A stretch of DNA of 64,000 nucleotides from Acanthaster planci (taxonomy: Eukaryota): assembly GCF_001949145.1 (NCBI RefSeq), contig NW_019091362.1:1185838-1249837 (forward strand), written 5' to 3'. The notes below the pieces were generated by a model. That model had not been told where the DNA came from and searched no databases. It saw only the letters and a list, made by a program, of their open reading frames with translations. Both the position numbers and the translations under genes were made by a program. Position 1 is the first letter of the stretch. Every line of letters starts with the position of its first letter. Shown here piece after piece: positions 1,069-63,690 of this stretch.

Positions 1069-4000
1069 CTTTTCAGGAAAATGTGAAGCTGTAGCCAGGG
1101 CAAACTGGGCTCCAGTCGAAACACCAACCATACTGACACCTCCTGCTTTCACAAAGGGTTGATCACTCAACCAGTCGATGGCCTCCTACATTTAAAATAA
1201 AATGACAGACAAAGATCCCCAAAATACCATGAACGACAAAAAGGGAAAACTTTTCTCAATTTTCAACAGCCAAGGAAAGTAACCAAAAGTTGCTTTTGGG
1301 TGGAGCGCGTATACTGTACACAGTTGCACATGTACCTATATTTGATAGCCGAAAGAGCGTGCTCTTGCTCTGCACTAGAGTATCCTCTGTGCTTAAAGAT
1401 ACGATGGACAGTTTGCCTCCTCTGATTGGTCCAAGGCCCGCCACGTCACCGGTGTTAAAAATGCACTTAAGACGGGATTTGGACACATAATAAGCAGATA
1501 AGAGTTGAAGCTATGCATGGTGGAAGTACTGAATTAGGTTAGGCTTGCGGTACCACCATGTACAAGAAAATATCTCTTTTATGAGTGTTTGGTTCTGAGA
1601 AGTACCGATGGTGAACACTCGACGTTCCGGACAGTATGTTCTGTTCGTCTTCAGAAGGGTGACTGGTTGCCTGGCTCTGAGGATGCTGGTTTTAAGCACT
1701 GGAGAGGATGTTGAGGGTGCACTGGAGCAGACGGAACGGCTTGCTTGATGGTGGATTTGATGGTGGATCACTGATGTGTGCCAGTGGGGCATTGGGTGTA
1801 GCGAAAGGAGGAATTAGTGACCGTGGGTATAGATGGCCCATTGGTCTGGGAGGGTAATATGGAGTACCAGATGCTGCTGGTGTGGAAGCCAACGTCTTTG
1901 GGGACTGTGTGCTCCTGTGGCCACCGCTACAGTTACGCCAGCATGGTTCAAGGAGGCACAGTGTACAACTAAGTCTGTTGACATCGTCAGCCCTGCTGAC
2001 TGGATCTGTAAAATGTATTGAAAGTTCCCAGACGAGCGATTTGACCTACGCCAAGACGAGTCCATCCACATCCTGCCAGCAGACAAAGGTAATGCAACAG
2101 TAGTCATGGATAAGGCCGACTATGTCAGTAAGGTCACTGACATGCTCTCCACCCCTACTTACTGCACCCTGCAGAAAGACCCCACTCCGTCTGTTAAACA
2201 GAAGATCGCCAGCAAGTTGTTGGCACTCCACCGCTCCGATGCCATCCCCTACAAGCTTTACAGACAGCTCAGACCGTCCAGCTCCACCTGCCCCAGGTTC
2301 TATGCTTAGCCGAAGATACACAAACCTGTCACCTCACTCCGTCCCATTGTTACCTCAAGAGGAGGCCGCACCTACAACACCGCCAAGCATCTTACCACAA
2401 TTCTCTAACCCTTGGTGGGTAAATCCCCGCATCACGTCACGAAAATCTGATCAGTTTGTTCAGATGATCAAGCAAGTTGAACTCAGCCCTGACGACATTA
2501 TAATCAGCTTTGATGTCGTTTCCCTCTTCACCACCGTCCCCACAGGCGAGGCCTGCCTCATTGCCAAAGAACGTCTAGAGCGAGACCTCACTCTCTGTGC
2601 GCGCACAGCCCTATCCCTGGACCAAATCCATGACCTGTTGCTAACCTGCGTCTCGTCATCCAGCTTCAGATGGAGGGACAAGTTCTTCTAACAGTCATCT
2701 GGGACCTCCATGGGATCTCCTCTATCTCCGGTCCTGGTTTACATGTTCATGGACGTCTTCGAGAATACAACGCTTGACACAGCAGATCACCTCCCAAGCA
2801 CTTGGCTATGCGCTGGACGACACCTTCGCCATTTGGCCGCATGCCCCCCAGCACCTGCTAGCGTTCCCGGATCACCTCAACGACCTGCATCCCAACATAG
2901 AGGGATCCCTGGGGCATGCCGTCTACCACAAGCCAGACTGGTACCTGAGCAGCGCATCATTCCATCATCTCAGCATCAAGTCTTCAGTCAACCGTGCCCT
3001 GGTGCAGCGAGTCTACAAGATCTGCCATTAAGAAGACATCCAAGAAGAACTCAAGCACATCTCAAGAGCCCTCAAGCGCAACGGTTACCGCCAAGATCAA
3101 GAACCCAAGATCACTGACTGTCGGGTCCCCTATTCCTAGAGTCAACCACCTTCTTACAAGGCAACAGTGATCTTACCATACATAGGAAACGCATCCCACA
3201 AGATCCGACGCATCCTCCACCAAGCCAACATCTGAGTATTCCACGCTGCAGCCAAGAAACTTCAAGCCACCCTGCAGACCCACAAGGACAAGCAAGACCA
3301 TCAAACGAAAGCTGGTGTCGGAAGGACCCCCTACGAATGTAGGAAGGCGTACATCGGCAAGACTGGTCGGGACTTGCCCACCAGACCCAAAGAACACATC
3401 GCCCAGGGATGCAGAGGTGACTACGATAAATCAGCAATTGTCAAGCACTCACACATCAAGGATCACGTCATCAACTGGCAAGCAGCTCAACTTATCGCTC
3501 CGGTCAACAAGTGGTACCCATGACGCGTCAGGGAAGCAATCGAGATCTTCAGGCACGACACAGTCCTTCAAGCCGTTGGTCTCCACATCAGCAACATCTG
3601 GCACTCCGTGTTACCCTCCCAGACCAATGGGTCATCCATACCCACGGTCACTAGTTCCTCCTTTCACTACACCCGATGCCCCACTGCCACGCATCAGCAT
3701 CTGTGAGCGCACTCAGTAGTCTTTCAGTCCAGCGGATCCACCACCAAGCAAGCCATTCTACTGCAGTGCACCCTCAGCATCCTTTCCAGCGCTTAAAACC
3801 AGCATCCTCAGAGCCAGGCAACCAGTCACCCTCCTGAAGACGAACAGAGCATACTGTTCAGAACGTCGAGTGTTCACCATCGGTACTTCTCAGAACCACA
3901 CTCAAAAAAGAGATATTTTCTTGTACATGGCGTAACCGCAAGCCTAACATAATAAGCAGTAATATTCAACACAAACTTTTTATGAACACAAATGAAACCG

Positions 4001-7000
4001 ACCTTTCCTCAAATGTTTATTCACAGGGCAAATCCACGTTGGGCCTATCATGTACGAATATGTAGTGTTTTGAATATTTTCAACAGAAATTTATAATTTA
4101 GAGATGAAAGTGTGATGGAATGGTTTTAGACAACATGTACACGTAGTACATTTTAAAGCGACTAGGGCTAGCTGCCAATATTGGATCTTGCGTGAGGTTC
4201 GATGTATGATCAACGCTTTTGTTACCCATTCGCTATTTCTGAAATATGTACCTTGAAATATTCCAAATCTATGTTTCCCTTTGAGGGTAGATCCTCATAC
4301 AGGGAGTGCGGTAGAGCGAAGCAGACCAGCCCACGGGAAGCCAGCATAGCTGCGCGGAACTCCACCAAACCTCCAACAGCTCCAAACATGTCGATCACAC
4401 CTGGAAACGGTCCTGCCCCTGCACAAGGAGAACCGATCTGATTCAAGATTGTCAAGTGGCAGGTCCATGTAGGCTAATCATAGAGGAAGGACACAGAAAA
4501 GGAGTTGCAACTATGGACCTTCTTTGTATAATCTTTCCAATTTTTTGACATTTTTTCTATTATCCATGCAAAGATTGTAATTTTATTCGCCCTCTCTAAT
4601 ACATCAGTTTTCAAAGACTTGGTACCGATTCAACAAGATGTCGACCACTGCTGAAATGCTTAGTACATAAGGAACAAAGTGCGCAAGGAGTGACCATGAA
4701 ATCTCGTAGAATACACTATTGTGCAGATGCTGTAATAAAATGATCAAAACAAACACAAAATCTTGTAAACTACGGGGCTCTTTATTCCCAATTGATAAAT
4801 CCAGAAGAAAGTATGGGCTGCACTTGTACATTTAGGGCACACGGCGTAATGCAAGCAAAATGCTTAAGCATTTTGATGTTTTGAGATCATACCAAGCACC
4901 AACAAATGCGTGAATATTCAACTTCCTATACCTCAGTACACAAAGTTTTAAGGATGCAGATAACTAGCGAAACAATTGCTGCAGCGATCATAGGGTAGAA
5001 AGGCGTTCGCTGCCTCGCTAAGGGTATACCAGGAATGCCAGAAAGCGGTAATTGGCCAGATGTTATATAGCCCTGGCAGTTCAAACACCTTCTGTATCCT
5101 TCCTCTGTGGTTTAATAAAAACCGGCTTAGCCTTGTTTCCGGCACAATGACTCTGAGCCTAATGTGTCGTAAAAATACAAAGTGGAAAAGCCGGGGGTGA
5201 CGGTCAATTACTGCCCCACAACTTTTGCTAACAAACACGTTACTTGTAAGCCCGACGTCATTTTAAAAAGTCTGATTTTTTTTTCAATTCAATTCATTCA
5301 ATTCAGTTCAACAGCAACATTTATTTCCATAATGCCATGTATGGAATATGACGAAAATACATGTGGAAAATTATGACAACAAAATAAATTCAAGGAGAAA
5401 AGATGCAAAAATAAAGCAGACAAAAATGGAGGCATTTAATATCAGGCAGACTTGATCTTATGTAGACATGCCTTGAACAAAACAGGACAAAACGAGACAA
5501 TCGGACGGGACAAAACAACGGACAATACATTCTGTACGTAGGGCCTATGCGCAATAAAAGTAGGTCAGTACTTATTGTGTTGTTGAACGTGCCTTGGCCT
5601 GGGCTCTCGTATGCAATGAAGCAACCGGCGGCCATTTACGGTGCCAAATACAATTGGGCAATTCACAATTGTGCGCCTCCAAGAGTTTGCAACGAGTTGG
5701 TCAATCACGATGCGCGAAATATGTCGACCCAATGCGCATTTGGAAAGTGTCGACAGATTTCGCGCATTGTAATTGGCCAAACGCACTGCAAACTCTTGGA
5801 GGCGCAATATTGTGAATTGCCCGTATTATGATCATTGGCTCACTTGATTTTTTCCATGAACGATGTGGTCAACAATGATGAGCCTTTTTATTACCAAAGG
5901 CTCAGCTATGTAGGATGATTAAGGGCATTGCGATTCCAGACTTTTTATTTGACGTCTGTGTGGTAAAGGGCTAATCTCTTTCACAAAGGAAGGGCAGGTG
6001 TCGCAATGCATTGTGGGTGGGATATGGCCTCAACTGTGGATTTCATTGTGTACAGGTGTTATGCAAATCGAATTGAATCGAATCGAAAAAAAGAAATCGT
6101 AGGGGAATAAAATCTTCATCCAAATCCAAAATGGGCCTAAACACAGCTGATAATAGCCGATCTTGAACATAAAAGCACCTTTTGGTTTGAATAATGCCCC
6201 CCTAAGGCGCCCGCTGTGGACCCTGATCCTTTCCACGTTCTTGCTCATGTACCATCTCTCGGAAGTCGCAGTAGCCTCCGGTTCAGCCGTTTGCAATGCA
6301 TCGGTGTCCAGATGTCCATAGTGCAAAGAGAGATTTACCGTCACTGGCTTCGTGACGTCTTTAACGAAGAAACGAGTGCCGAGTTTCTGACCTCGGAAAG
6401 GCTGCATGCTCCAGAACAGCCCCATTGATTCAGAACCTACTCGGAAAAAAATGAGGGGAGGGTCAAACCGTGTAATTAAAATAGTCTCCGTAAACGTGCA
6501 CCGAGGTTCGATTCGAGTGATTTTCATTCAAGAATTGTCTGAAATATTGAGCAGGGGAAAGAGTGCATGTTATTCCCAAATAGTTTCCTGTGTCGGGGAC
6601 AGAGATTTGAGACATTATAGACAGTAATCGTCGGTTAATACGTACATCAACAAAATGTCTATTTTTATATTATCTTTTAAAAGTTTCACATGTTATTCAT
6701 TTCTAATGAAATTTAGGTACCTCTTGAGAGATCGTTGCTTTACAAAAGAAGCAGAAAGACATTTACCAGAAATTAGTTATTAGTTTGAGCAACCCAAGGC
6801 CTGTCTTAAGACCGGATGACTTGTAATAAGTTTACAGGGGCTGGTGATGGACCAGACTACAATACTGTTCACAAGAAAATAATAGGAGAAAGTTCATATC
6901 TTCGGGAGAAAGTCAATAAATATTTGCCATACCAGTGTACGTTCCGCCTAAGGAAGACTGCTTAGGGACCGAAACAACTCCGTCATCGTCGACTATGTAA

Positions 7001-41900: not shown

Positions 41901-42410
41901 AAATTATCTCTGTGTGTTGACCAAATACAGTGAGCATTAAGCCTGGGTATGGGGTACCTGAAGAACTCCAAGTCACTTCCCCGTACGACTTTGAGCCGTT
42001 GTTTACATGGGGTTGTAACGCTATGTACATGTATTTGTTTTTAATTGAGCTCTTGAGGTAAATGATCTGGTTACACAGATTCCACTTTAACATTCAAATT
42101 TCCTGGTAACACCAACCTTGAGGCACCTGTAGCTCTTGAAAATGGTGTACCAGAGGTTTCAGACCATGAGACTAAACTTTGTATTTTTTGAAAAGTCTGA
42201 CACTTTTACTCACCAATCTCTTGTTTCACCCGACGATGATTGCACCGGTTGTGTTTACCACGTTTCATTCTCCTTTTTCATTTTTTTTTTAGTGAATATG
42301 ATGTTTGTGGAGAGCTAATGATACGTTTTTAGACATAACCATAATACTCTTATTTGATTTCCCCCTCCAGGATTGTTTTACGTAATTGTCACCCTCATCC
42401 GCTTCCAACA

Positions 42411-45400
42411 ATGTCATTCCTTTTCGGAAAAAAGAAGACACCAGCAGAAATGCTGAAGCAAAACCAGAGGGCCTTAAATAGAGCCATGAGGGAGCTGGAT
42501 AGGGAACGGACGAGGATGGAAGGCCAGGAGAAAAAGGTCATCGCAGATATCAAGAAGATGGCCAAGCAAGGACAGATGGTAAGCAAGCTTTTGGGATAGC
42601 AAAATAACACAATTCAGCTATTTTTTTGGAATTATCTACAGCAGAGCCTGATTTCCCTCGCAATGCAACGCAGGACTAAGCTGCTTTGGTTGGCATGTTT
42701 TGTGGTACACTGCCCCAAGTAACTGAGTCAGACTTGAGTGTCAAATCAAACGCTGTCGCAGTTGCAGGACTGAGTTGAGGGAGGCATACATGTTAAATTG
42801 TATGCACTGACAGTATAGGTCAGTACAACTGACCATTGCAAGAAAATACCAATTATGTTTATTTCACAAGCAATACCCTGATATGGCCAGGTACCTGTGA
42901 CGTATATTCCCAATCCCTCAAATGTCTTTGAAATGGAACAATTTCTGAAAATTTTGTTCACCGAGGACAGGATTAAACATTCTTTGCCATGTCCTGGAGG
43001 CTGTCACTTGAGGGCAGTTGACTAATCACAGCACATTTAAATTTCATCAGAATGCTTGTTGGCTGATCTGCTCAGGAAGCAGTTGTATGAAAATATTTTA
43101 CCGTTTATGTGCATGGAGGAAGATGTGTGGAATAGTTTGATGAATTAGTAAATGGATTGTTAATTAAGCTACCCAAGTTAGTGAATGGAATGTAATGGGT
43201 AATGGATTGTATTCATGTGTCAGCCATCTTGAACTCAAAGGGAAATCAACTTTTCATTTTTGGAACCGAGAGCAAATAACAGCAATAGAATAAAAGTTCA
43301 TTACAATTCATGCCAGTTTACGTTTGGAATAATGTAAATTTTGTGATGAATTATATCTAAATTATATTAGAATATATTATATTTGAGAGTTTTAAGCCAC
43401 ATTCAAAACACTGAAAGGGAGACTTGGAACCCAACATGGTCTGGCACCAACCCTATTTAACAGATTACATTATATACTGTATGATAGATTCAGGGAACAG
43501 GATCACAAATGGCTTCCCTGTGAATAAATGGCTTCACCTAATGAGGTGACATTTGCCAGTTTGAATGACCAGTTCGTTGCAAACATTGAACTTCATTTAT
43601 GTCTTTTGTTCTTCCAAGGACGCAGTCAAGGTAATGGCTAAAGACTTGGTCAGGACTCGAAGATACGTCAAGAAGTTCATCATGATGCGAGCCAACATCC
43701 AGGCCGTCTCCTTGAAGATCCAAACCCTGAGATCCAACCAGGCCATGACTGATGCCATGAAGGGGGTGACAAAGGCTATGCAGGCCATGAACAGACAGGT
43801 GGGTGGGTAAGAGCCAGGCTAGCTTTGATTGCTGCAGGATTGCAGTAGTCAGTGGTCACCATTCACTTTGGTTTAACCCTCCTGTGGTTTAACAGCACAG
43901 ATATGCACGAATGCCAACAGTCACTCTTGTGCATGTGTTGTCTTTATGGAACACACACATGCACAGGTTCAATGTGCATACGGTTGGTTGCTGGCACAAA
44001 ATGACCAGGGTCTTTTGTGCCGTCCTCTTCACTGCAGTTGGTTTACTGCACAATGATGCACATGAAACAGTGAAGCACAGTTGTTGGGTAGCACAAAAGT
44101 GCAATCTGATATTCCTGTGAGGGATAGTTGGTGCAGTGCACATCATGACACAGCTGTGCATCTTTGTGCAGCTTACCAACTCACCCAAATTATGACTTCA
44201 GCATAGTTTAAGGAATTGTCCAAAGTTCTACTGCGTGTCTTCTATGTTAAGTCAAAGTGTAATCTCCATAAGAACCCCTTCAAACTACCTAAATACACCA
44301 GTTTTGCCTTCCAGTGGTCCAGTAAAGTCTTTGTTCAAGATCTGCACACTATAATAACATACTGCTCAAATTCTTCCACATCTCTACGTTGTATGCCAAG
44401 TGAAAGGCCCAAAAGTTCTAAACAGCATTCACTCCATGGAGGAACAAGAAATAACATGCTTTTAAATGTAGACTGTAGTGATGATCCTTACTTGAAAACC
44501 GCATGTTTATGCACATTTGCACATGTGCGCCGAGCACATGAATCATCCTGGGTTGGAAAATTTCCCATGAGCCAGTCTCTTCCTCGGTGGTGAGGGAGTG
44601 CTTCAGGCAGGGGCGGAACTTAACCAGAGGGGAAATTACAGCCAGACAGCTGTCACTTTCTGACTGTTTATCTTCACATGAACCCATCTGACCTTTGTAC
44701 ATGGCAGACTAATACCTGATGAGGTCGAAAACGTTTCGTTGTTACATTGAATTCATTCGGGTTTTTTCAGCAGCAATTAAAAAGGAAATCAATACGGCCA
44801 TAAGGTGGATGTTGACGGAATTAGAACACTACAGCTTCCATGACCAATAAGGTTCTGTCTCTTCTCACTTGAAACAGTTGAAGCTACCACAAATTCAGAA
44901 GATCATGATGGAATTTGAGAAGCAGTCTGAGATTCTGGACATGAAGGAGGAGATGATGAATGATGCGGTTGACGATGCTCTTGGCGATGAGGAAGATGAG
45001 GAAGAAACGTGAGAGAAACTCAAAACCGCCACCTTTGCTAAATGCCATTAACCCATCTAGGGTTTAACAGCACAGATATGCATGAATGCTAACAGTCACT
45101 CTTGTGCATGTGTTTTTACATGGAACACAAATATGCACGGGTTCAATGAGCATACGGTTGGTTGCCGGCACAAAATATCACAGGGTCTTTTGTGCCGTCC
45201 TCTTCACTGCAGTTGGTTTACTGCACAATTATGCACATGAAACAGTGAAGCACAGTTGTTGGGCAGCACAAAAGTGTAATCTGATATTCCTGTGAGGGAC
45301 TGTTGGTGCAGTGCACAGCATGACACAGCTGTACATCTTTGTGCAGCTTTCTAATTGACCCAAAGAGCGACTTCAGCAGAGGCAGGTTAAAGGTGCAAAG

Positions 45401-46945
45401 CACTGTAATGGCCATTATAAAGAGGAACATGCACATGTACCATGTGGTTTGGTTTCTTTTAGTTCTTCATGTTTCTGTTACCAGGATTTCATGGTGTTTG
45501 TAACTGTCAACCAGTGCCACCCCCGGCAGAAGTCCATGCCCCTCCCACAGCCCAGAAGTCCATGCCCCTCCCCCAGTTCCTCCCTTTCCCTTTGAAATTT
45601 TGAAGCTATACTGTACAGGCTGCACTTCGTCTGCTTTCAGTGCCCCGTTGAAAAAATGTGTGCCCCCCCCCCGAAAAAAAAATCCTGTGACACTACTGCT
45701 GACAACCTGTTATCAGGGTTGACTCCACACAAAAATCATAGATGGTTTGATCACTCATAAAAACTGGTTTGAATGAGACATTGTGTGACGTGAGATGTAC
45801 TGAACTGGTTTTCATTTGAATGTGTACAAACTCATTGCTTCTTTTCTAGAGCCCTGGGTGCACACAGGAATTGGTGTTCCATTTCAGACCTGTTTCTCTC
45901 TGCCGTCACTAATAGGGGAATGGAAATGTATATTTGCGTGGTGATTTCTTGCTCTTTTAGAATTCGCTTGGCTCATCACAGAAGCAGTCGCAAAGGAAAG
46001 CCAAAATTATTCAGTGTGACTATGCATTCATTTCTCACTGCATCATTTGTCTCCTTTTAGCGATGCCGTCGTGTCTCAAGTCCTGGATGAGCTTGGCCTT
46101 GTGCTCACTGATGAACTCACCGGTAAGTTGTTTGCACTAGTATGTTATCTTTTCATGTTCATTTAAAACGCACAGAGGTTGTCAAGGGATGGAAATGGTT
46201 TATACACTGCACATTACAATGACACAAGGGCAGAGAATGTGTGCAGTTAAATCTTAATGCTCGTTAGATTTCGGTGCCCAAAATTGACGATCTCGTATTC
46301 AAAACAGTTTATAGTTTACATGCAGTCGAAGCCCTTAATATTGCTGAAATTGTATTGGCTGTAGTTTGTTTTGATAGAGCTGCCCTCCTTGTCGCATCAA
46401 TTTAGTTCTCACAAGTACATGTGCATAACCACATAAATGATTTGAAGACTGGGTCAGATCAGAGGCCGTGATGTCAACAGACTGGCCATCCTCGGAGGCT
46501 AGACTTTCCACTTTAATTTATACAAACTAGGCTCCGCCTGGCCAAAATGTTTGTTATAACTTTGTGGTACGTGGAGTGCCTGTCTCATTCGTTTCAATCA
46601 CACGTAAAGCACACTTTAGAACAGGGCTTTATGTGTCGGTATGAGCAAGAGTCAGCTATGTCCAGAGAGAGAGAATGCCGCTGTAAGAGACAAGAGAATG
46701 GAACGGTATTGCTTGTGTCCTTGAGCAAGCCATGCAGACGTTTACAGCTTTATTCCAAATTGGAACAAGATGCGCAGTTCATTTGGATTTTAGAAGAGAG
46801 ATCTGTTTCTTTTTTGCCAACAGCGATTCCAGGAACGGGTGGTGCGCTGACACAGAAGGCGGAGCCAGCGAAGCAAGCCGTAGCAGAGGGAGGGGGAGAG
46901 GACGATGACCTTCAGGCCAGATTAGATAATCTCAGAAGAGAGTGA
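42411..46945 (+). CDS. CHMP2A: Charged multivesicular body protein 2a (ESCRT-III, Vps2)
   Basis: Exons 42411-42578 (MSFLFGKKKTPAEMLKQNQRALNRAMRELDRER..KMAKQGQM), 43619-43798 (DAVKVMAKDLVRTRRYVKKFIMMRANIQAVSLKIQTL..), 44878-45008 (LKLPQIQKIMMEFEKQSEILDMKEEMMNDAVDD..), 46061-46122, 46824-46945 (..DDDLQARLDNLRRE*, MIM1 motif). All GT-AG and in phase. Confidence 0.97.
43877..44207. mobile_element. TTAA-CCC piggyBac-like MITE; second direct copy at 45052-45386
   Basis: About 330 bp, highly similar copies in CHMP2A introns on either side of coding exon 3, both starting TTAA|CCC. Confidence 0.8.
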
Positions 46946-57370: not shown

Positions 57371-60300
57371 TTAAACTGATGTCTCTGCCTCCATGTTGGG
57401 GACCTTTGGTGTAGGGAGATCAAACACGATGGGCTTGTTGGAGGGGCTGTAGTTAACTGTGCAGATGGAGGCGTTAATAAACGTGGTTTTGTTGTCGGTG
57501 GTGACACCGTAGCCTTCGTGGATGTGTCCGAAGATATGGTACTTGGGCTTGACCCGGCGCTGGATAGTAGTGAGGAGTTCCACGCAGCCCGCTCGCTCTT
57601 TGGATGTGGTCAAATCCCCATGACCTGTGCAGACATGGAAAAAGCTGCTTCATATGCATTGCGCATGTACAATGACCAATCAAATTCACAGATCTAGTAA
57701 TTTACACACGTGCAGCCTGGGTTCAATCCCAGCCCGGTCCACATGTGGATTAGGTTTTCAGCCCCTACCTGATCCCGTGGGTTTTACCCAGAATATTCCT
57801 CTGGGGTTTTTATCCCACCTCTAAAACCGTAACTGCTTCTTACTGTCTCCTCTCGTGCTACAGTGCCTAGGGGTGCTCTGAGGAATCCTTGGATTAATTT
57901 TAATTAATTTTGGTTTGATTACCAGATATATTTACTACCACTGAAAGCAATAGCTCTATATGTACAGTAGATCTGTTGGCTTGATTTGTCAGGCAGGATA
58001 TGCCAGCGTGCCTCACTATGCTGCTCTTTCGCCGTAGTTGAGTCGTAGTCTAAATCCAGACAAAGCTGTATTCAAAAGTTACGGCTGTGGCTGGAAGTGC
58101 TACATGTATGTATGCCAATGGAAGCCACTTACTAAAAAGCTGCAGCTGTTTCCATAGACGTAAATGTTACTCCTAGCCACAGCCTGTTTATTTAGACAGG
58201 GCCTTTAAGATGCACTCTCATCAAACCATAATAATCTCGTTGGTACTACCCTCAAGTAAAGGTCAACACACCAATGTTTATCAATCAGGGAGGAGATAGC
58301 ATAATTACTCCTGGGACTCCAAAAGCAGCAGGGTTTCCATTTAAACAACGATGGAGTCCTGGATGGCCCAATAGACTGTATCCGCGGCGTCCCCAATTTC
58401 AGTCATATTCCTTAACATACAGTACAAATTTTAAATCCATAAGGGGGTTGGTACCAGGTGATTTGGGGGGGTCAGAATGAAATCGTAGAATATAGTCTAG
58501 TTCCTTGAATTTAACATTTTCCAATAAATACACTACCTTGGGGAATATGACTGAAATTGGGAACGCCGTGAATATGGTCTATTTGGAAAAGGTACATTGA
58601 TCAAACCTACAATACTGTGTCTTGAAACTAACATCCAGACTCAGCAAATCTAAATTCACGATATTGAATTGAAAATTAATTACTATTATGACGTTAATAT
58701 AAGCATTTCAGAATGCAAAATCAAGTATACACAAGAACCAGCTTAGACAATTTCACAGTGCTACTGAGAAACAAAGATCACCAGCATTCTGTATTTATTG
58801 TAACTGGTTCCCAGCTAATTTTTGCTCAACACTTAATGCATAAGTTTGTCGAACATTATTTCTCACTTGTGAGTAAAGCGAGTCTACATGTATAAAACCA
58901 GGTTGAGATTTAAGTCAGGTCCAGTTTTGAGCTGCTTTGTTTTTTACTCTCCTGGACTCCAAGTCTACTTCATGCTACTTAGAGGGAACCCGCCACTCAT
59001 TACAATGTTCAGCTACATGTACTGGGTCCTTGCAGAGGCTTCTGAAAGAGCTGCACCAAGACTGGATACTTGTCCTAATTGACTGAAGCCATCAAAGCTT
59101 CTAGACTGCTGTGTGCTGCGATGATTCTGTGGTTTGTTGTCCCTCTCATCTTACCGACTTCATTTTCTGGTAAGCTTTGAAGTGAAACACGATGCCTATG
59201 TATGCTCATCCACTGCCACGGTTGATCATGGCAAAAGAGCTATCCTGATTGCTGTCAGTCTCTGACTATATCAGAGAGATCACGGTAGTATCCAGACCAT
59301 AGCAGCGCTCAATGTATTCTTTATACGCACAATGTCAATGTAACAGCAAGGCCGGGGGGCAGGGGATTAGACAGACAAGTGGTACTTTACCTAATGGTGG
59401 TCCATGCGTGACTAGCACATCAATGCCCGCTGGAATAAGGTTCCATTTGTCAAGTAGCGGCTGACCTCTTGGCAAATTGAAAGCCCAGTCACAGAACTCT
59501 GGTTGCCTATGAATGGAAAGACACAGAAGACAGTTCGCCTCAACGGGTGCTGTCTACACAAGCATGTACCATAATGCTTGTGTCCCTGAGCGATCTATTT
59601 TACCAAGATTCCTTCAACATTACGCAATGTTTAACTGTACAATGAAACGGCCAAATTCAAACGCACTCAACACTTTGTCAACAGTGTCTGATACATTCAT
59701 GAATCAACCGATCTAAGTACTACCAATCAAAAAAATTATCAAAATAACATGAAAATTCCCTCAGGATTTCGAATTATTACAAATTTGAAAATTCATCATA
59801 GGTGTGAAAATTAGTATTTGTAGTCACCAAATTCATAAGGAGGTTCTATATTTAAGACTTGTGATCACAATTGGAAAAAAATCAATAGATATACATGTAG
59901 TTACCATGGCGACCCGTAGATACGGAATCCCATAATGTTGACCTCGGCATCTTCTAGGTAGGTGCAGTTGGTAAGCAACGAGGGGATGTGCTTCCAATCT
60001 TCTTGTTTGACTTCTTGCAGCGCCGTGGCAAAGCTCATAAAGACGTGGCTGCTCTGCTCTGTCATTAGCTGCCGGTCAAAGGTCACTTCGTGGTTGCCGG
60101 CAATGACAACCTTGTGCCTGTGAGGCAACTGACCTGGGGGAAGGAAAGCAAATGCATGTGTTTCCTTTTAAACTTTTAAAACTTCAAATTTGATTTCCAA
60201 CTTACAGTTTAATAATCAACATTTAACAGCAACTCCATTAATGACCTCTGCAAAGTTTCCTAAGAACATTTGAAATGGTGCATGTTCAGGAGAGGTTCCG

Positions 60301-63300
60301 GTACAGTAATGGACGTGTTCAAGCTTTTTTGCACAGGACATCATGACATTAAATCTTCACACAACAAAATAAAACGAAGGCCTGTTTTTGATACAGGTCT
60401 GGAATATACTGTAGGGTCTTTCAAGTTTCAGCTTAACATAAATATGGATTAAATTCTCAATTGTCAATTTTTACTCTCAAAAGCAAAAGAGACTATTAAT
60501 GGTGCGCCATCCCATATTCTACATATTCTAAAATACCATAGTTTTGACTTACCCTACTGTGGGTTAGGAAAAGTCACTGGTTACAAGTACATTTGAATTA
60601 TACATAACTATTTTCATGGTAAATGTAATTTCTTCAGTCAAAATGGAGGATTCCAACTGTTAGGGCTAAGGCTGCTGGCAATCCAAAACTGTACACAACT
60701 TGAAGAACTAGGGGCCTACCTACTCTGAACAATTTCTTTTTTAGTAAGACCTAAAAATATTGTAAATGGTATTGAACACACCTCAGCTGTCATCAGCTCT
60801 TAAACAAAGAGCAACTAATACATGCAGGACATCTTCAACTTTCTCATCATATTTTCGACAACTGTGACAAGATCGACGTGTACTCAGCTCACCCAGAAAT
60901 GCATTGAAGGCTACAACCTCCCTAGGCAGACCAATGTTGCTGAAATTGCCGGCATGGATCAAGATATCACCTTCTGGTATCTTGGCCATGTGACTTGTCC
61001 TCGAAAACGTGTCCGAGATGCAGACAAACCTGGTGTAACCTGCGTAGTGACAGACACACATGAACAAAAAAATAAACCAGGAGGGAGGCAAGACTCACCC
61101 AAGAATTCGTTGAATCTCTTTATTTCCCTGGGGCGACCAATGTTGGTGAAGTCGCCCGCATGAATAAGGATGTCACCGTCGGGTATTGTCGGGAGAAGAC
61201 GGGCGGCTTGGTTGTGTGTGTCAGAAATACAAACAAAGCGTACGGCCCCTGAACAGTGCAACACAAAGACGGATACCATGCAAAAAATCAGGGTAAAGCT
61301 GAAATGAGGTGAAGGCATGCAGGATGGAAACCGAACAAGCAAAATTAAAACTAAGTGTGCTCAAAAGAAAAACACAAAGAACACCTTAATATTAATCATG
61401 AATACATGTACAATGTACTTAAACATTTACCCTGATGTTAAATTCTGTAAATAAGATTAAGTAGCTGCACCGCAAAATGCTTATGGACTGCAGTGGGAAG
61501 GCCTTCCCCGTGTTAAGGGGGGCAATTTCTATTGTTAAGAAAGACAGAACAGCAATATGGGAGCAGATTTCGTCCCCATAATAATTTTGGTCTCTATAAC
61601 ATCTACATTATGTACATGCATATTTCAAGAATCTTCATTTAACCCAGTAAGAAGGAAGCTCCTGTGTAAACTTAACGATTAAAACTCGAAAAAGTGAAAT
61701 TTGTCTCTTATTAGAATCTCTGAGAAAGATTTTGTTTTGAAGTAAAAAAAAAATCTGTTCAGCTTGTACCGGTAACTTTGGGCCCTCTTATTTTGACATA
61801 TGTAAGAATTTGCCAGCATTTGTGGATTTCAAAATAAATTCAAAATAAAAACTTGAAAACAAATCAAAACATGGCACTTTTCTTGCAAGACTTGATGAAC
61901 AAACTGAACAGACGTATTTCCAGGTTTTGAAGCAAAGAAAAAGGAAATGATAAAGTTGAAGAATAAGTCAGGGTACTAGCCAATACAGCACAGAATACAT
62001 GCATGGATAAAAAGTAAACATTCAGGCAAAACAATGTGCATGTATACAGGTATGGAAAGTGCTCTAGCATGGGCATGTACTCTGATACACATACGTGTAT
62101 ACAAGAAAGTGTGGACAGCAGAATATGCAAACATGGCTGGGGCATCGTCAGTATTTGGCCTGCCATCTGTCAAGGTCACATGACCCGTCATGTGCAGGGT
62201 GTCATCCACTTTTGTTCAGGCATATCCGGTTCGTAAGTGACTTTGTCACAAAGGCAGACGGGCCATGATTCACAGGCTCCCATTGGACGATCACAGAAGT
62301 TGCGCATTAACTTCTGGTTTCATGGTTCCATGTAACCCTATGTGCAGTGCACGTACATGTATGCAGTGGCCGTGGTTTAAACTGAAGTGACGTCACACTT
62401 GCGAACCGGATTGGGATGAGGTCAGAAAATATGCAGGGTCAAAAGGATATTTCATCCTCTGCTCAGTAGATGCAAACAACCTAAAATAAAAAAAGAAAAA
62501 AAATTTGTCTTTGCTTATATGTGTCAGTTTATCTGTTGGTCCTTTTGTCTTAAATTCTGTCAACACACATGAATGTGATTCATAACTGTGGCTTGGAAAT
62601 CAAAGATAAAGTGTAAGAAACCATACTTCAAAGTTGCCATTTGACAACAAGTGCACATATACATGTATATGTTTATGGACGATCTCCCAACAAGAAAATG
62701 TATCAATCAATTTACAATGTATTTACATATGCAAAAGTTGTGACTGCTTTACTTCTGCAAAATTAATTCTTTATTTAGGAATTAGAGCCTTGCTGTCAGG
62801 TTTTGAGGTTTCTGTTTGGAAAATGATTCTTAAAAAGTAAATTCAATTAATTCCTGCATTACTGGATTTTTGAAGATAGCAAGGTACCAGCAGAATCAGT
62901 GATAAATATTCTTCCAACAATGTGATGCATCTTGACTGCTGTAAGTCCTCCCTGTGTTTCCCCGATATTTCTTACTGCTTCATAAACATGTTTCAGCCCA
63001 AATCCCGTACAACTATAAGGCACAAGTTAATAGTGATGCAGCACTGATTACAGGAGGCTACTTTCTGCATGTGAAAGTTGAATTATGAGACCACACAGTG
63101 CAAGTTTGTTAACAAGAGCAACACTCATGCACATGTACATGTATGTACGGACACAAGTACAGTATACAGACACATGTAGATACATGTATACCCATAAACT
63201 ACATGTACATGTATGACTCAGAGTCTCTGGACCGTTTTCACTTTCATAACCCTTGTGCTGCCATTTCTGGATGAAACCATTTTCTTTTTTTAACTCTTGG

Positions 63301-63690
63301 GAAGTTTTAAGAAATTGATGGTGAAACAGCAGTACATGAAGTGAACAAGGCCCGGGTACATCTATTCTCCATCTGGGCAGACTTCTTATTCACGCATCCT
63401 GCATATTGTGCACGTACTTATGTACTCTTGTACCAAGGCGCGTTGAACATGATGTTGTATTAATGACACTCTTGGCATCATTGTACCAACCTTCGGGTAT
63501 GGGAATGTCTGGATTGATGGGCTGGACCACTCTACAGACCGTGGAGGACCGGTTCTTCATGGCATCCCAGACACATGTAGGCTTGTGGCTCTCCGGGTGA
63601 ACCGTGACCTCCCCGGCGCATTCATCCTCAATGTCCTCATCCCGAGGTTTGGCAGACAAGCTGCGACTTCCTGTGGCGCGTAGGAAGCGT
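57371..63690 (-). CDS. MPPED1: Metallophosphoesterase domain-containing protein (MPPED1/MPPED2, 239AB/239FB family), 5' end not found in window
   Basis: Exons 63690-63491, [61248-61099 or 61039-60893], 60133-59905 (KVVIAGNHEVTFD..YLED..IYGSPW), 59506-59391 (QPEFCDWAFNLPRGQPLLDKWNLIPAGIDVLVTHGPPLG), 57624-57371 (GCVELLTTIQRRVKPKYHIFGHIHEGYGV..*). All five MPE motifs (DxH, GD, GNH, H, GHxH) are present via the first alternative exon. The symbol is family-level; it is probably a co-ortholog of MPPED1/2. Confidence 0.93.
57712..57852 (+). mobile_element. tRNA-derived SINE fragment (same family as 17481-17839)
   Basis: GGTTCAATCCC B-box, then CCGGTCCACATGTGGATT..GGGTTTTACCCAGAAT..CCTCTAAAACCGTAACTGCTTCTTACTGTCTCC, matching the first copy. 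Confidence 0.8.
58369..58584. mobile_element. Palindromic MITE
   Basis: AATAGAC..CGGCGTCCCCAATTTCAGTCATATTCC is inverted to GGAATATGACTGAAATTGGGAACGCCG..GTCTATT. Confidence 0.75.
60893..61039 (-). CDS. MPPED alternative exon B (147 nt, phase 1-1), metal ligands substituted
   Basis: cag|GT TAC..CTG G|gtgagc. Encodes GYTRFVCISDTFSRTSHMAKIPEGDILIHAGNFSNIGLPREVVAFNAFLG with no stops. Confidence 0.75.
61099..61248 (-). CDS. MPPED alternative exon A (150 nt, phase 1-1), canonical DxH and GD motifs
   Basis: cag|GG GCC..TTG G|gtgagt. Encodes GAVRFVCISDTHNQAARLLPTIPDGDILIHAGDFTNIGRPREIKRFNEFLG. Confidence 0.9.
62224..62411. mobile_element. Small TIR element / MITE
   Basis: ATCCGGTTCGTAAGTG ... CACTTGCGAACCGGAT terminal inverted repeat. 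Confidence 0.7.

What the first reader, a model, noticed from the sequence alone, without database searches (positions are those of the whole stretch)
60893..61248. Tandemly duplicated catalytic exon in MPPED: candidate mutually exclusive enzyme / pseudo-enzyme splicing switch
Seen in sequence: two paralogous exons (A 61248-61099, B 61039-60893), both phase 1-1, both with CAG acceptors and GTGAG donors, both stop-free. They share RFVCISDT, IP.GDILIHAG.F.NIG.PRE and FN.FLG, while many synonymous codons differ, which points to an old duplication with selection on both. Exon B differs at two metal-ligand positions: motif I DxH becomes DTF and motif II GD becomes GN. Established knowledge: in calcineurin-like metallophosphoesterases these His and Asp residues bind the dinuclear metal centre, and the motif II Asp bridges both metals. 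Inference: exon choice gives either an active phosphodiesterase or a folded but catalytically dead or altered isoform (scaffold, decoy or substrate trap) from one gene. I know of no description of this for MPPED, but I cannot search the literature.
Basis: partly seen in the sequence, partly recalled or inferred. Interest (0 to 1): 0.9.

Follow-up and report, generated by a model that had tools for sequence, protein, structure and literature searches.

The report
Starfish enzyme with a dead twin exon
In starfish and sea urchins one phosphodiesterase gene carries two copies of its metal-binding exon, one intact and one conserved but lacking two metal-binding residues, so splicing likely yields either a working enzyme or a predicted inactive form, and the sea cucumber proteins found carry only the second copy.

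Summary
The window is Acanthaster planci MPPED.

Exon B lacks the rat-MPPED2 ligands H67 and D86, which are nearly invariant in 222 non-echinoderm motif units. B is not a pseudo-exon. It is present with both ligands lost in starfish, sea urchins and sea cucumbers, its copies group together (93/91), and it is more conserved than A in 18 of 21 species pairs. The sea cucumber proteins found are B-only and have lost further ligands.

Strict mutual exclusivity is not supported. A+B models exist in 8 species and B-only models in 2 of those 8. In 8 RNA runs, A>E4 (2 runs) and B>E4 (3) were seen; E1>B and spliced A>B were not. One contig carries A, the unspliced 59-nt intron and B, which frameshifts.

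Best reading: an ancient, leaky enzyme/pseudoenzyme exon switch, with A-B joining probably hindered by the very short intron. Activity is untested. No paper describing it was found.

The parts
63491..63690 (-). Coding exon before the pair (E1 here; the ATG lies in an upstream exon outside the window); donor phase 1
   Evidence: spliced to A in RNA; matches P0084/P0005/P0001
61099..61248 (-). Exon A: beta1-alpha1-beta2-alpha2 unit with D65, H67, D86 intact
   Evidence: (PF00149 above cutoff); E1>A in 5 of 8 runs, A>E4 in 2 of 8
61040..61098 (-). 59-nt A-B intron; branch-point-like adenines about 39 and 52 nt from A's donor (predicted); retained in RNA contigs
   Evidence: run X3 record 9 and run X1 records 4, 5
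60893..61039 (-). Exon B: paralogous unit with H67F and D86N; D65 kept
   Evidence: B>E4 in 3 of 8 runs
60959..60961 (-). Premature stop reached when the 59-nt intron is retained; 66 nt before B's donor
59905..60133 (-). Shared exon E4 with GNHE motif
59391..59506 (-). Shared exon E5 with THGPP motif
57371..57624 (-). Last coding exon E6 with GHIHE motif and stop

Best explanation
The Acanthaster MPPED gene has two tandem copies of the exon that carries three of the metal ligands; copy A is intact and spliced into mRNA, while copy B is a conserved copy lacking H67 and D86, so exon choice likely switches between an active Mn-dependent phosphodiesterase (A-only) and a predicted folded but inactive, scaffold-like protein (B-only). 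The duplication and ligand loss likely happened once, before starfish, sea urchins and sea cucumbers split. In starfish the 59-nt (39-nt in one contig) intron probably hinders A-to-B joining, as in OGDH 4a/4b. The exclusion is leaky: transcripts that take both exons either stall with the intron retained (frameshift, likely decay, so a third 'off' outcome) or are spliced to an in-frame A+B protein. SHOWN: anatomy, ligand loss, conservation, E1>A, A>E4, B>E4, intron retention. INFERRED: B-only protein in Acanthaster, loss of activity, steric mechanism, NMD, scaffold role.
For: B lacks residues found as His in 217 of 222 non-echinoderm motif units (3 of the 5 exceptions are pattern mis-starts) and as Asp in 221 of 222. 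B is more identical than A in 18 of 21 species pairs, e.g. 92-96% vs 73-84% among starfish and 98 vs 83% Lytechinus-Strongylocentrotus (pairs not independent). B copies from three classes group at 93/91. RefSeq has A-only, B-only and A+B proteins in A. planci and Patiria. The sea cucumber proteins found are B-only with further ligand loss (GHIP; GHHE in Apostichopus), yet fall in one 90% cluster across Holothuria and Apostichopus, so a B-built protein is viable and under constraint. Both donors are used in run X4; A>E4 alone is seen in X5 and B>E4 alone in X1 and X3. A short spacer recurs: 59 nt here, 39 nt implied by P0002, near or below the roughly 50-nt steric limit cited in PMC7969005. A preprint reports that inactive Drosophila MPPED D49A rescues lifespan.
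Against: E1>B was seen in 0 of 8 runs. A+B models occur in 8 species and B-only in just 2 of those 8, with none found for urchins or Asterias. The best-covered B transcript (X3, depth 10.3) retains the intron and cannot encode B. The published fly paper has 0 occurrences of 'inactive' or 'D49A' in its main text, so the catalysis-independence result is preprint-only. No dN/dS, no branch-point mapping, no assay. The tree has 49 columns; the B node is below the tool's star threshold and the A copies do not form one supported clade.
Confidence: 0.55

Rival explanations
1. B is mainly a cassette added to A. The A+B protein uses A's strands and ligands in the core and B as a roughly 49-residue insert that also supplies helix alpha2, giving an active enzyme with an extra interaction or swapped module.
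For: A+B models in 8 species; the Diadema models carry no isoform label and S. purpuratus A+B is X1. A+B is in frame. The GLP helix-start motif is kept in B but drifts in A (GRP, GSL, SRR, SGP). AF2 places A's strands in an MPPED2-like core (TM 0.95-0.96 to 3RL3-5) with residues 108-153 at low confidence.
Against: Spliced A>B was seen in 0 of 8 runs. The AF2 result mirrors where MAFFT put the gap, and the unbiased 8-sequence control failed (pLDDT 38). B's core strands are strongly conserved and B alone builds the sea cucumber protein. A 39-nt intron would be hard to splice.
Confidence: 0.24
2. In Acanthaster B works mostly as a poison extension: using B's donor with the intron retained sends transcripts to decay or nuclear detention and lowers enzyme level; B-coded protein is minor.
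For: X3 and X1 show A-intron-B spliced to E4, with zero depth over most of the flanking long introns in X3; the stop lies 66 nt upstream of the next junction.
Against: It does not explain amino-acid conservation of B in its own frame across three classes; a 39-nt retention would stay in frame; B-only genes exist in sea cucumbers.
Confidence: 0.12
3. B-containing enzyme is not dead but altered: one-metal, or a nucleotide-binding sensor with different substrates.
For: D65, GNH, THG and GHIH are intact in starfish and urchin B forms; Asn or Ser at 86 could still contact a metal.
Against: Phe or Leu at 67 cannot bind metal; the bridging Asp is 221 of 222 invariant; sea cucumbers lost further ligands once only B remained.
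Confidence: 0.08
4. B is a decaying pseudo-exon or an assembly artefact.
For: No E1>B junction was seen.
Against: Conserved in three echinoderm classes, 58% nucleotide identity to A, contiguous with A in RNA contigs, donor used in 3 of 8 runs.
Confidence: 0.01

Closest known systems
MPPED1/MPPED2 (rat MPPED2, PDB 3RL3/3RL4/3RL5; Drosophila dMpped), class III calcineurin-like metallophosphodiesterases
   Same: Sequence, motifs and fold; the A-only isoform has all motifs, including GHIH as in MPPED1 and the fly enzyme.
   Different: Crinoid, hemichordate, amphioxus and vertebrate proteins retrieved have one such unit with DTH/GD; the duplicated exon with a ligand-less copy was found only in starfish, urchins and (B alone) sea cucumbers.
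OGDH mutually exclusive exons 4a/4b (PMC7969005)
   Same: Ancient tandem exon duplication; one copy has and one lacks a metal-binding motif; exclusion by a short 5' splice site to branch point distance.
   Different: OGDH switches an allosteric Ca2+ site and both forms are enzymes, whereas here catalytic-centre ligands are lost. OGDH 4a+4b is out of frame; here A+B is in frame and is modelled in 8 species.
PKM1/PKM2 and PFKP mutually exclusive exons (bioRxiv 10.1101/292813)
   Same: Paralogous exon choice tunes an enzyme.
   Different: [quoted passage not shown]
Pseudoenzymes arising from whole-gene duplication (general class, recalled); P0036 is an unnamed separate MPPED-like protein with DTY/GN and further decay
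   Same: Loss of catalytic residues with a conserved fold.
   Different: Here enzyme and predicted pseudoenzyme share one gene and all other exons; sea cucumbers appear to have fixed the pseudoenzyme by losing A.

Membership tests
MPPED family | Sequence and fold similarity to MPPED1/2, PF00149 | tested here: met
Active dinuclear metallophosphoesterase (A-only isoform) | DxH, GD, GNH, H, GHxH motifs all intact | tested here: met
   P0084
Active dinuclear metallophosphoesterase (B-only isoform) | DxH and GD motifs intact | tested here: not met
   DTF and GN
Active dinuclear metallophosphoesterase (A-only isoform) | Metal-dependent phosphodiesterase activity | not testable with these tools
   no assay
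Mutually exclusive exons from tandem duplication | Adjacent paralogous exons of same phase and similar length | tested here: met
   150 and 147 nt, phase 1-1
Mutually exclusive exons from tandem duplication | Each exon is spliced alone between the flanking exons | tested here: inconclusive
   A: E1>A and A>E4 seen. B: B>E4 in 3 of 8 runs, E1>B in 0 of 8 at low depth; B-only RefSeq models in 2 species
Mutually exclusive exons from tandem duplication | The two exons are not carried together | tested here: not met
   A+B models in 8 species; A-intron-B-E4 contig in X3; spliced A>B itself not seen
Mutually exclusive exons from tandem duplication | An enforcing mechanism (steric distance, frame incongruity, RNA pairing) | tested here: inconclusive
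   Predicted branch point 39-52 nt from the donor fits steric hindrance; frame incongruity absent; no convincing pairing from a 9-mer scan
Pseudoenzyme | Loss of near-invariant catalytic or metal residues | tested here: met
Pseudoenzyme | Maintained by selection | tested here: met
   amino-acid conservation only; dN/dS not computed
Pseudoenzyme | Retains the fold | not tested
   B-only was not modelled; both fold jobs went to A+B
Pseudoenzyme | No or residual activity, with a non-catalytic function | not testable with these tools
   no assay

The most novel reading that the evidence does not exclude
One echinoderm gene has kept, since before the starfish/urchin/sea cucumber split, a regulated splice switch that swaps its own catalytic exon for a ligand-less twin, making enzyme and pseudoenzyme from one locus. 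Sea cucumbers then dropped the enzyme exon and fixed the pseudoenzyme, a natural separation of MPPED's catalytic and non-catalytic roles.
Probability: 0.5. Interest if true: 0.82.

Novelty: new variant of a known kind. Interest (0 to 1): 0.68.

Why it matters
Whether MPPED proteins (neurodevelopment, WAGR region, tumour suppression) act through catalysis or as scaffolds is open: a preprint claims catalysis-independence, and the published version only suggests scaffolding. Echinoderms provide an evolved separation-of-function series: crinoid (single intact exon), starfish and urchin (both copies), sea cucumber (B only, further decayed). Residues conserved in B and in the sea cucumber protein point to the non-catalytic surface. 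It is also an unusual case of paralogous-exon splicing that swaps core active-site ligands rather than surface or allosteric residues.

Tried and rejected
No genome is held for the window. The metagenome scan gave 7 loci, best 63% identity; I did not examine them further, and none looked like an echinoderm A/B locus, so there was no orthologous DNA and no dN/dS.

The run search listed no holder on record as RNA. 8 of 24 listed runs were laid. Raw runs X10, X13 and X14 were read at 18-20% with exon depth about 1, too low to count isoforms. X2 gave only unspliced pieces and is uninformative. Missing E1>B and A>B joints are weak evidence: listing thresholds apply, contigs drop rare variants, and 254 and 153 piece rows were not shown.

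AF2 with only the 8 A+B orthologues failed (pLDDT 38). A 9-mer inverted-repeat scan gave no convincing docking/selector pairing. Tandem units in P0101 (identical copies, likely an artefact), P0085 and P0107 (fused gene copies, both intact) were rejected as parallels.

My first guess of amphioxus, from TACATGTA repeats, was wrong. Tyagi 2009 and Dermol 2011 are not held. No supplements were read. No earlier scan findings. No complex prediction was run.

Full report
OBSERVATION. Both exons are at the stated coordinates, with CAG/GTGAG sites, phase 1-1 and open frames. A scores above the PF00149 cutoff and B alone does not. Both hit only rat MPPED2 in the PDB. In rat numbering B has H67F and D86N and keeps D65. 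The downstream motifs GNHE, THGPP and GHIHE are intact in the shared exons; their roles as ligands are recalled family knowledge. Among 245 non-echinoderm relatives, 219 gave 222 motif units: His at 67 in 217 (3 of the 5 exceptions are pattern mis-starts) and Asp at 86 in 221. A and B are 58% identical in DNA, and 16 of 29 shared residues use different codons. The intron between them is 59 nt and A+B is in frame.

IDENTITY AND ANNOTATED FORMS. Exon B matches Acanthaster planci proteins at 100%. RefSeq names three isoforms: A-only XP_022111965.1, B-only XP_022111967.1 and A+B XP_022111968.1. Patiria has the same three. Full-length A+B models were found in 8 species (Acanthaster, Patiria, two Asterias, Lytechinus variegatus, Strongylocentrotus, two Diadema) plus a partial one in L. 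pictus. B-only models were found in 2 of those 8. A-only was found in four starfish and in two unnamed urchin-type Logan proteins. These are gene models whose read support I could not inspect.

EVOLUTION. Every B copy has lost both ligands: DTF/GN in starfish and sea cucumbers, DTF or DTL with GS in urchins. B is more identical than A in 18 of 21 species pairs, equal in 1 and lower in 2 (pairs share history). In a 26-row, 49-column tree the 10 B rows group at 93/91 with the single intact crinoid exon as sister (90/79); the A copies are not resolved as one clade. The two crinoids, the hemichordates, amphioxus and vertebrates retrieved have one intact unit. The sea cucumber proteins (Apostichopus RefSeq and GenBank, a Holothuria fragment without the N-terminal part, three Logan records) are B-only where the region is present. 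They have GHIP for GHIH, and Apostichopus and one Logan record have GHHE for GNHE. The Apostichopus protein no longer hits Pfam at E 0.01. Whether sea cucumbers keep exon A unannotated or have another intact MPPED was not testable. P0002, a genomic read-through identical in both exons to Asterias, implies a 39-nt spacer.

RNA. Eight of 24 listed runs were laid. E1>A appeared in 5 of 8 (X1, X4, X5 contigs; 3 reads from one start in X10; 2 reads in X14). A>E4 appeared in 2 of 8 (X4, X5) and B>E4 in 3 of 8 (X1, X3, X4). E1>B and spliced A>B appeared in 0 of 8. In X3 one 1940-nt contig (depth 10.3) runs from inside A through the unspliced 59-nt intron and B and is then spliced to E4 and E5, while most bins of the flanking long introns have no depth. 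X1 shows the same in two pieces. Retention shifts the frame to a stop at 60961, 66 nt before the next junction, which by the recalled 50-55 nt rule would invite NMD. X1 and X3-X5 share one study code, so they are not independent studies. Contigs show presence only. What differs between samples is donor choice (A's or B's); tissue is unknown.

STRUCTURE. AF2 on A+B with 55 sequences gave an MPPED2-like core (TM 0.95-0.96) that uses A's strands, with residues 108-153 at low confidence and B's last helix in the core. This copies MAFFT's gap placement, and the 8-sequence control failed, so which copy occupies the core in A+B is unresolved.

MECHANISM. Best reading (0.55): a leaky enzyme/pseudoenzyme exon switch. 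A-only is predicted active and B-only predicted inactive. In starfish the short intron puts any branch point about 39-52 nt from A's donor, near the roughly 50-nt steric limit cited for OGDH. This would slow A>B joining and explain the retained form. Rivals are cassette co-inclusion (0.24, strongest for urchins), a poison extension (0.12), altered activity (0.08) and a dead exon (0.01). The narrower claim that B is a selected, translated, ligand-less module is much firmer, about 0.9.

KNOWN WORK. Seen as passages: bioRxiv 10.1101/2020.05.08.084137 (MPPED2 D65A and fly D49A inactive; D49A rescues lifespan). PMC10547211 section 6 and passages (D49 and H51/H67 as conserved residues, Mn-dependent phosphodiesterase, scaffolding only suggested; no 'inactive' or 'D49A' in the main text). 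PMC7969005 passages (OGDH 4a/4b). bioRxiv 10.1101/292813 passages. The primary MPPED2 biochemistry and structure papers are not held, and no supplements were read.

NOVELTY. Searches for MPPED with 'mutually exclusive exon' (0 papers), MPPED with echinoderm (4 unrelated), MPPED with echinoderm names (0 occurrences in the 10 listed of 2,751), and MXE with pseudoenzyme or inactive isoform (listings only) found no description. The library lacks most subscription journals. The isoforms sit in RefSeq under a generic name.

VERDICT. Real, ancient and under selection. It works like an OGDH-type paralogous exon switch but fails the strict 'never together' test. New variant of a known kind, interest 0.68.

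Noticed in passing
P0092, P0094-P0098 (sea cucumber cluster): B-only MPPED with further loss of metal ligands (GHIP; GHHE in Apostichopus): a predicted dedicated pseudoenzyme gene conserved across two genera.
   Followed up: partly
P0036 (unnamed Logan protein): A separate MPPED-like protein with DTY/GN, GPNE and GNNY: an apparently independent decay starting at the same two ligands.
   Followed up: no
P0002 (ENA contig): Implied 39-nt GT-AG spacer between A and B, in frame if retained, although Asterias RefSeq models splice it.
   Followed up: partly
window 42345-46942 (+): Snf7-family (CHMP2/Vps2-like, subfamily name recalled) gene; two exons hit PF03357.
   Followed up: partly
window 4225-6527 (-): Acyl-CoA thioesterase/BAAT-like exons; one hits PF04775.
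   Followed up: partly
window 2022-3716 (+): Broken retroelement-like reading frames by eye; the one fragment scanned had no Pfam hit.
   Followed up: no
window 62223-62411, 57725-57854, 58377-58575: Interspersed repeats inside MPPED introns with very high read and contig depth and many loose ends.
   Followed up: no
P0101, P0085, P0107: Other MPPED models with two motif I-II units: identical copies in Pangasius (likely artefact), fused gene copies in a pseudoscorpion and a nematode; all ligands intact.
   Followed up: partly
window 57371-55200 (-): Run X3's 1940-nt and X1's 850-nt contigs extend past the laid stretch, suggesting a long 3' UTR; not mapped.
   Followed up: no
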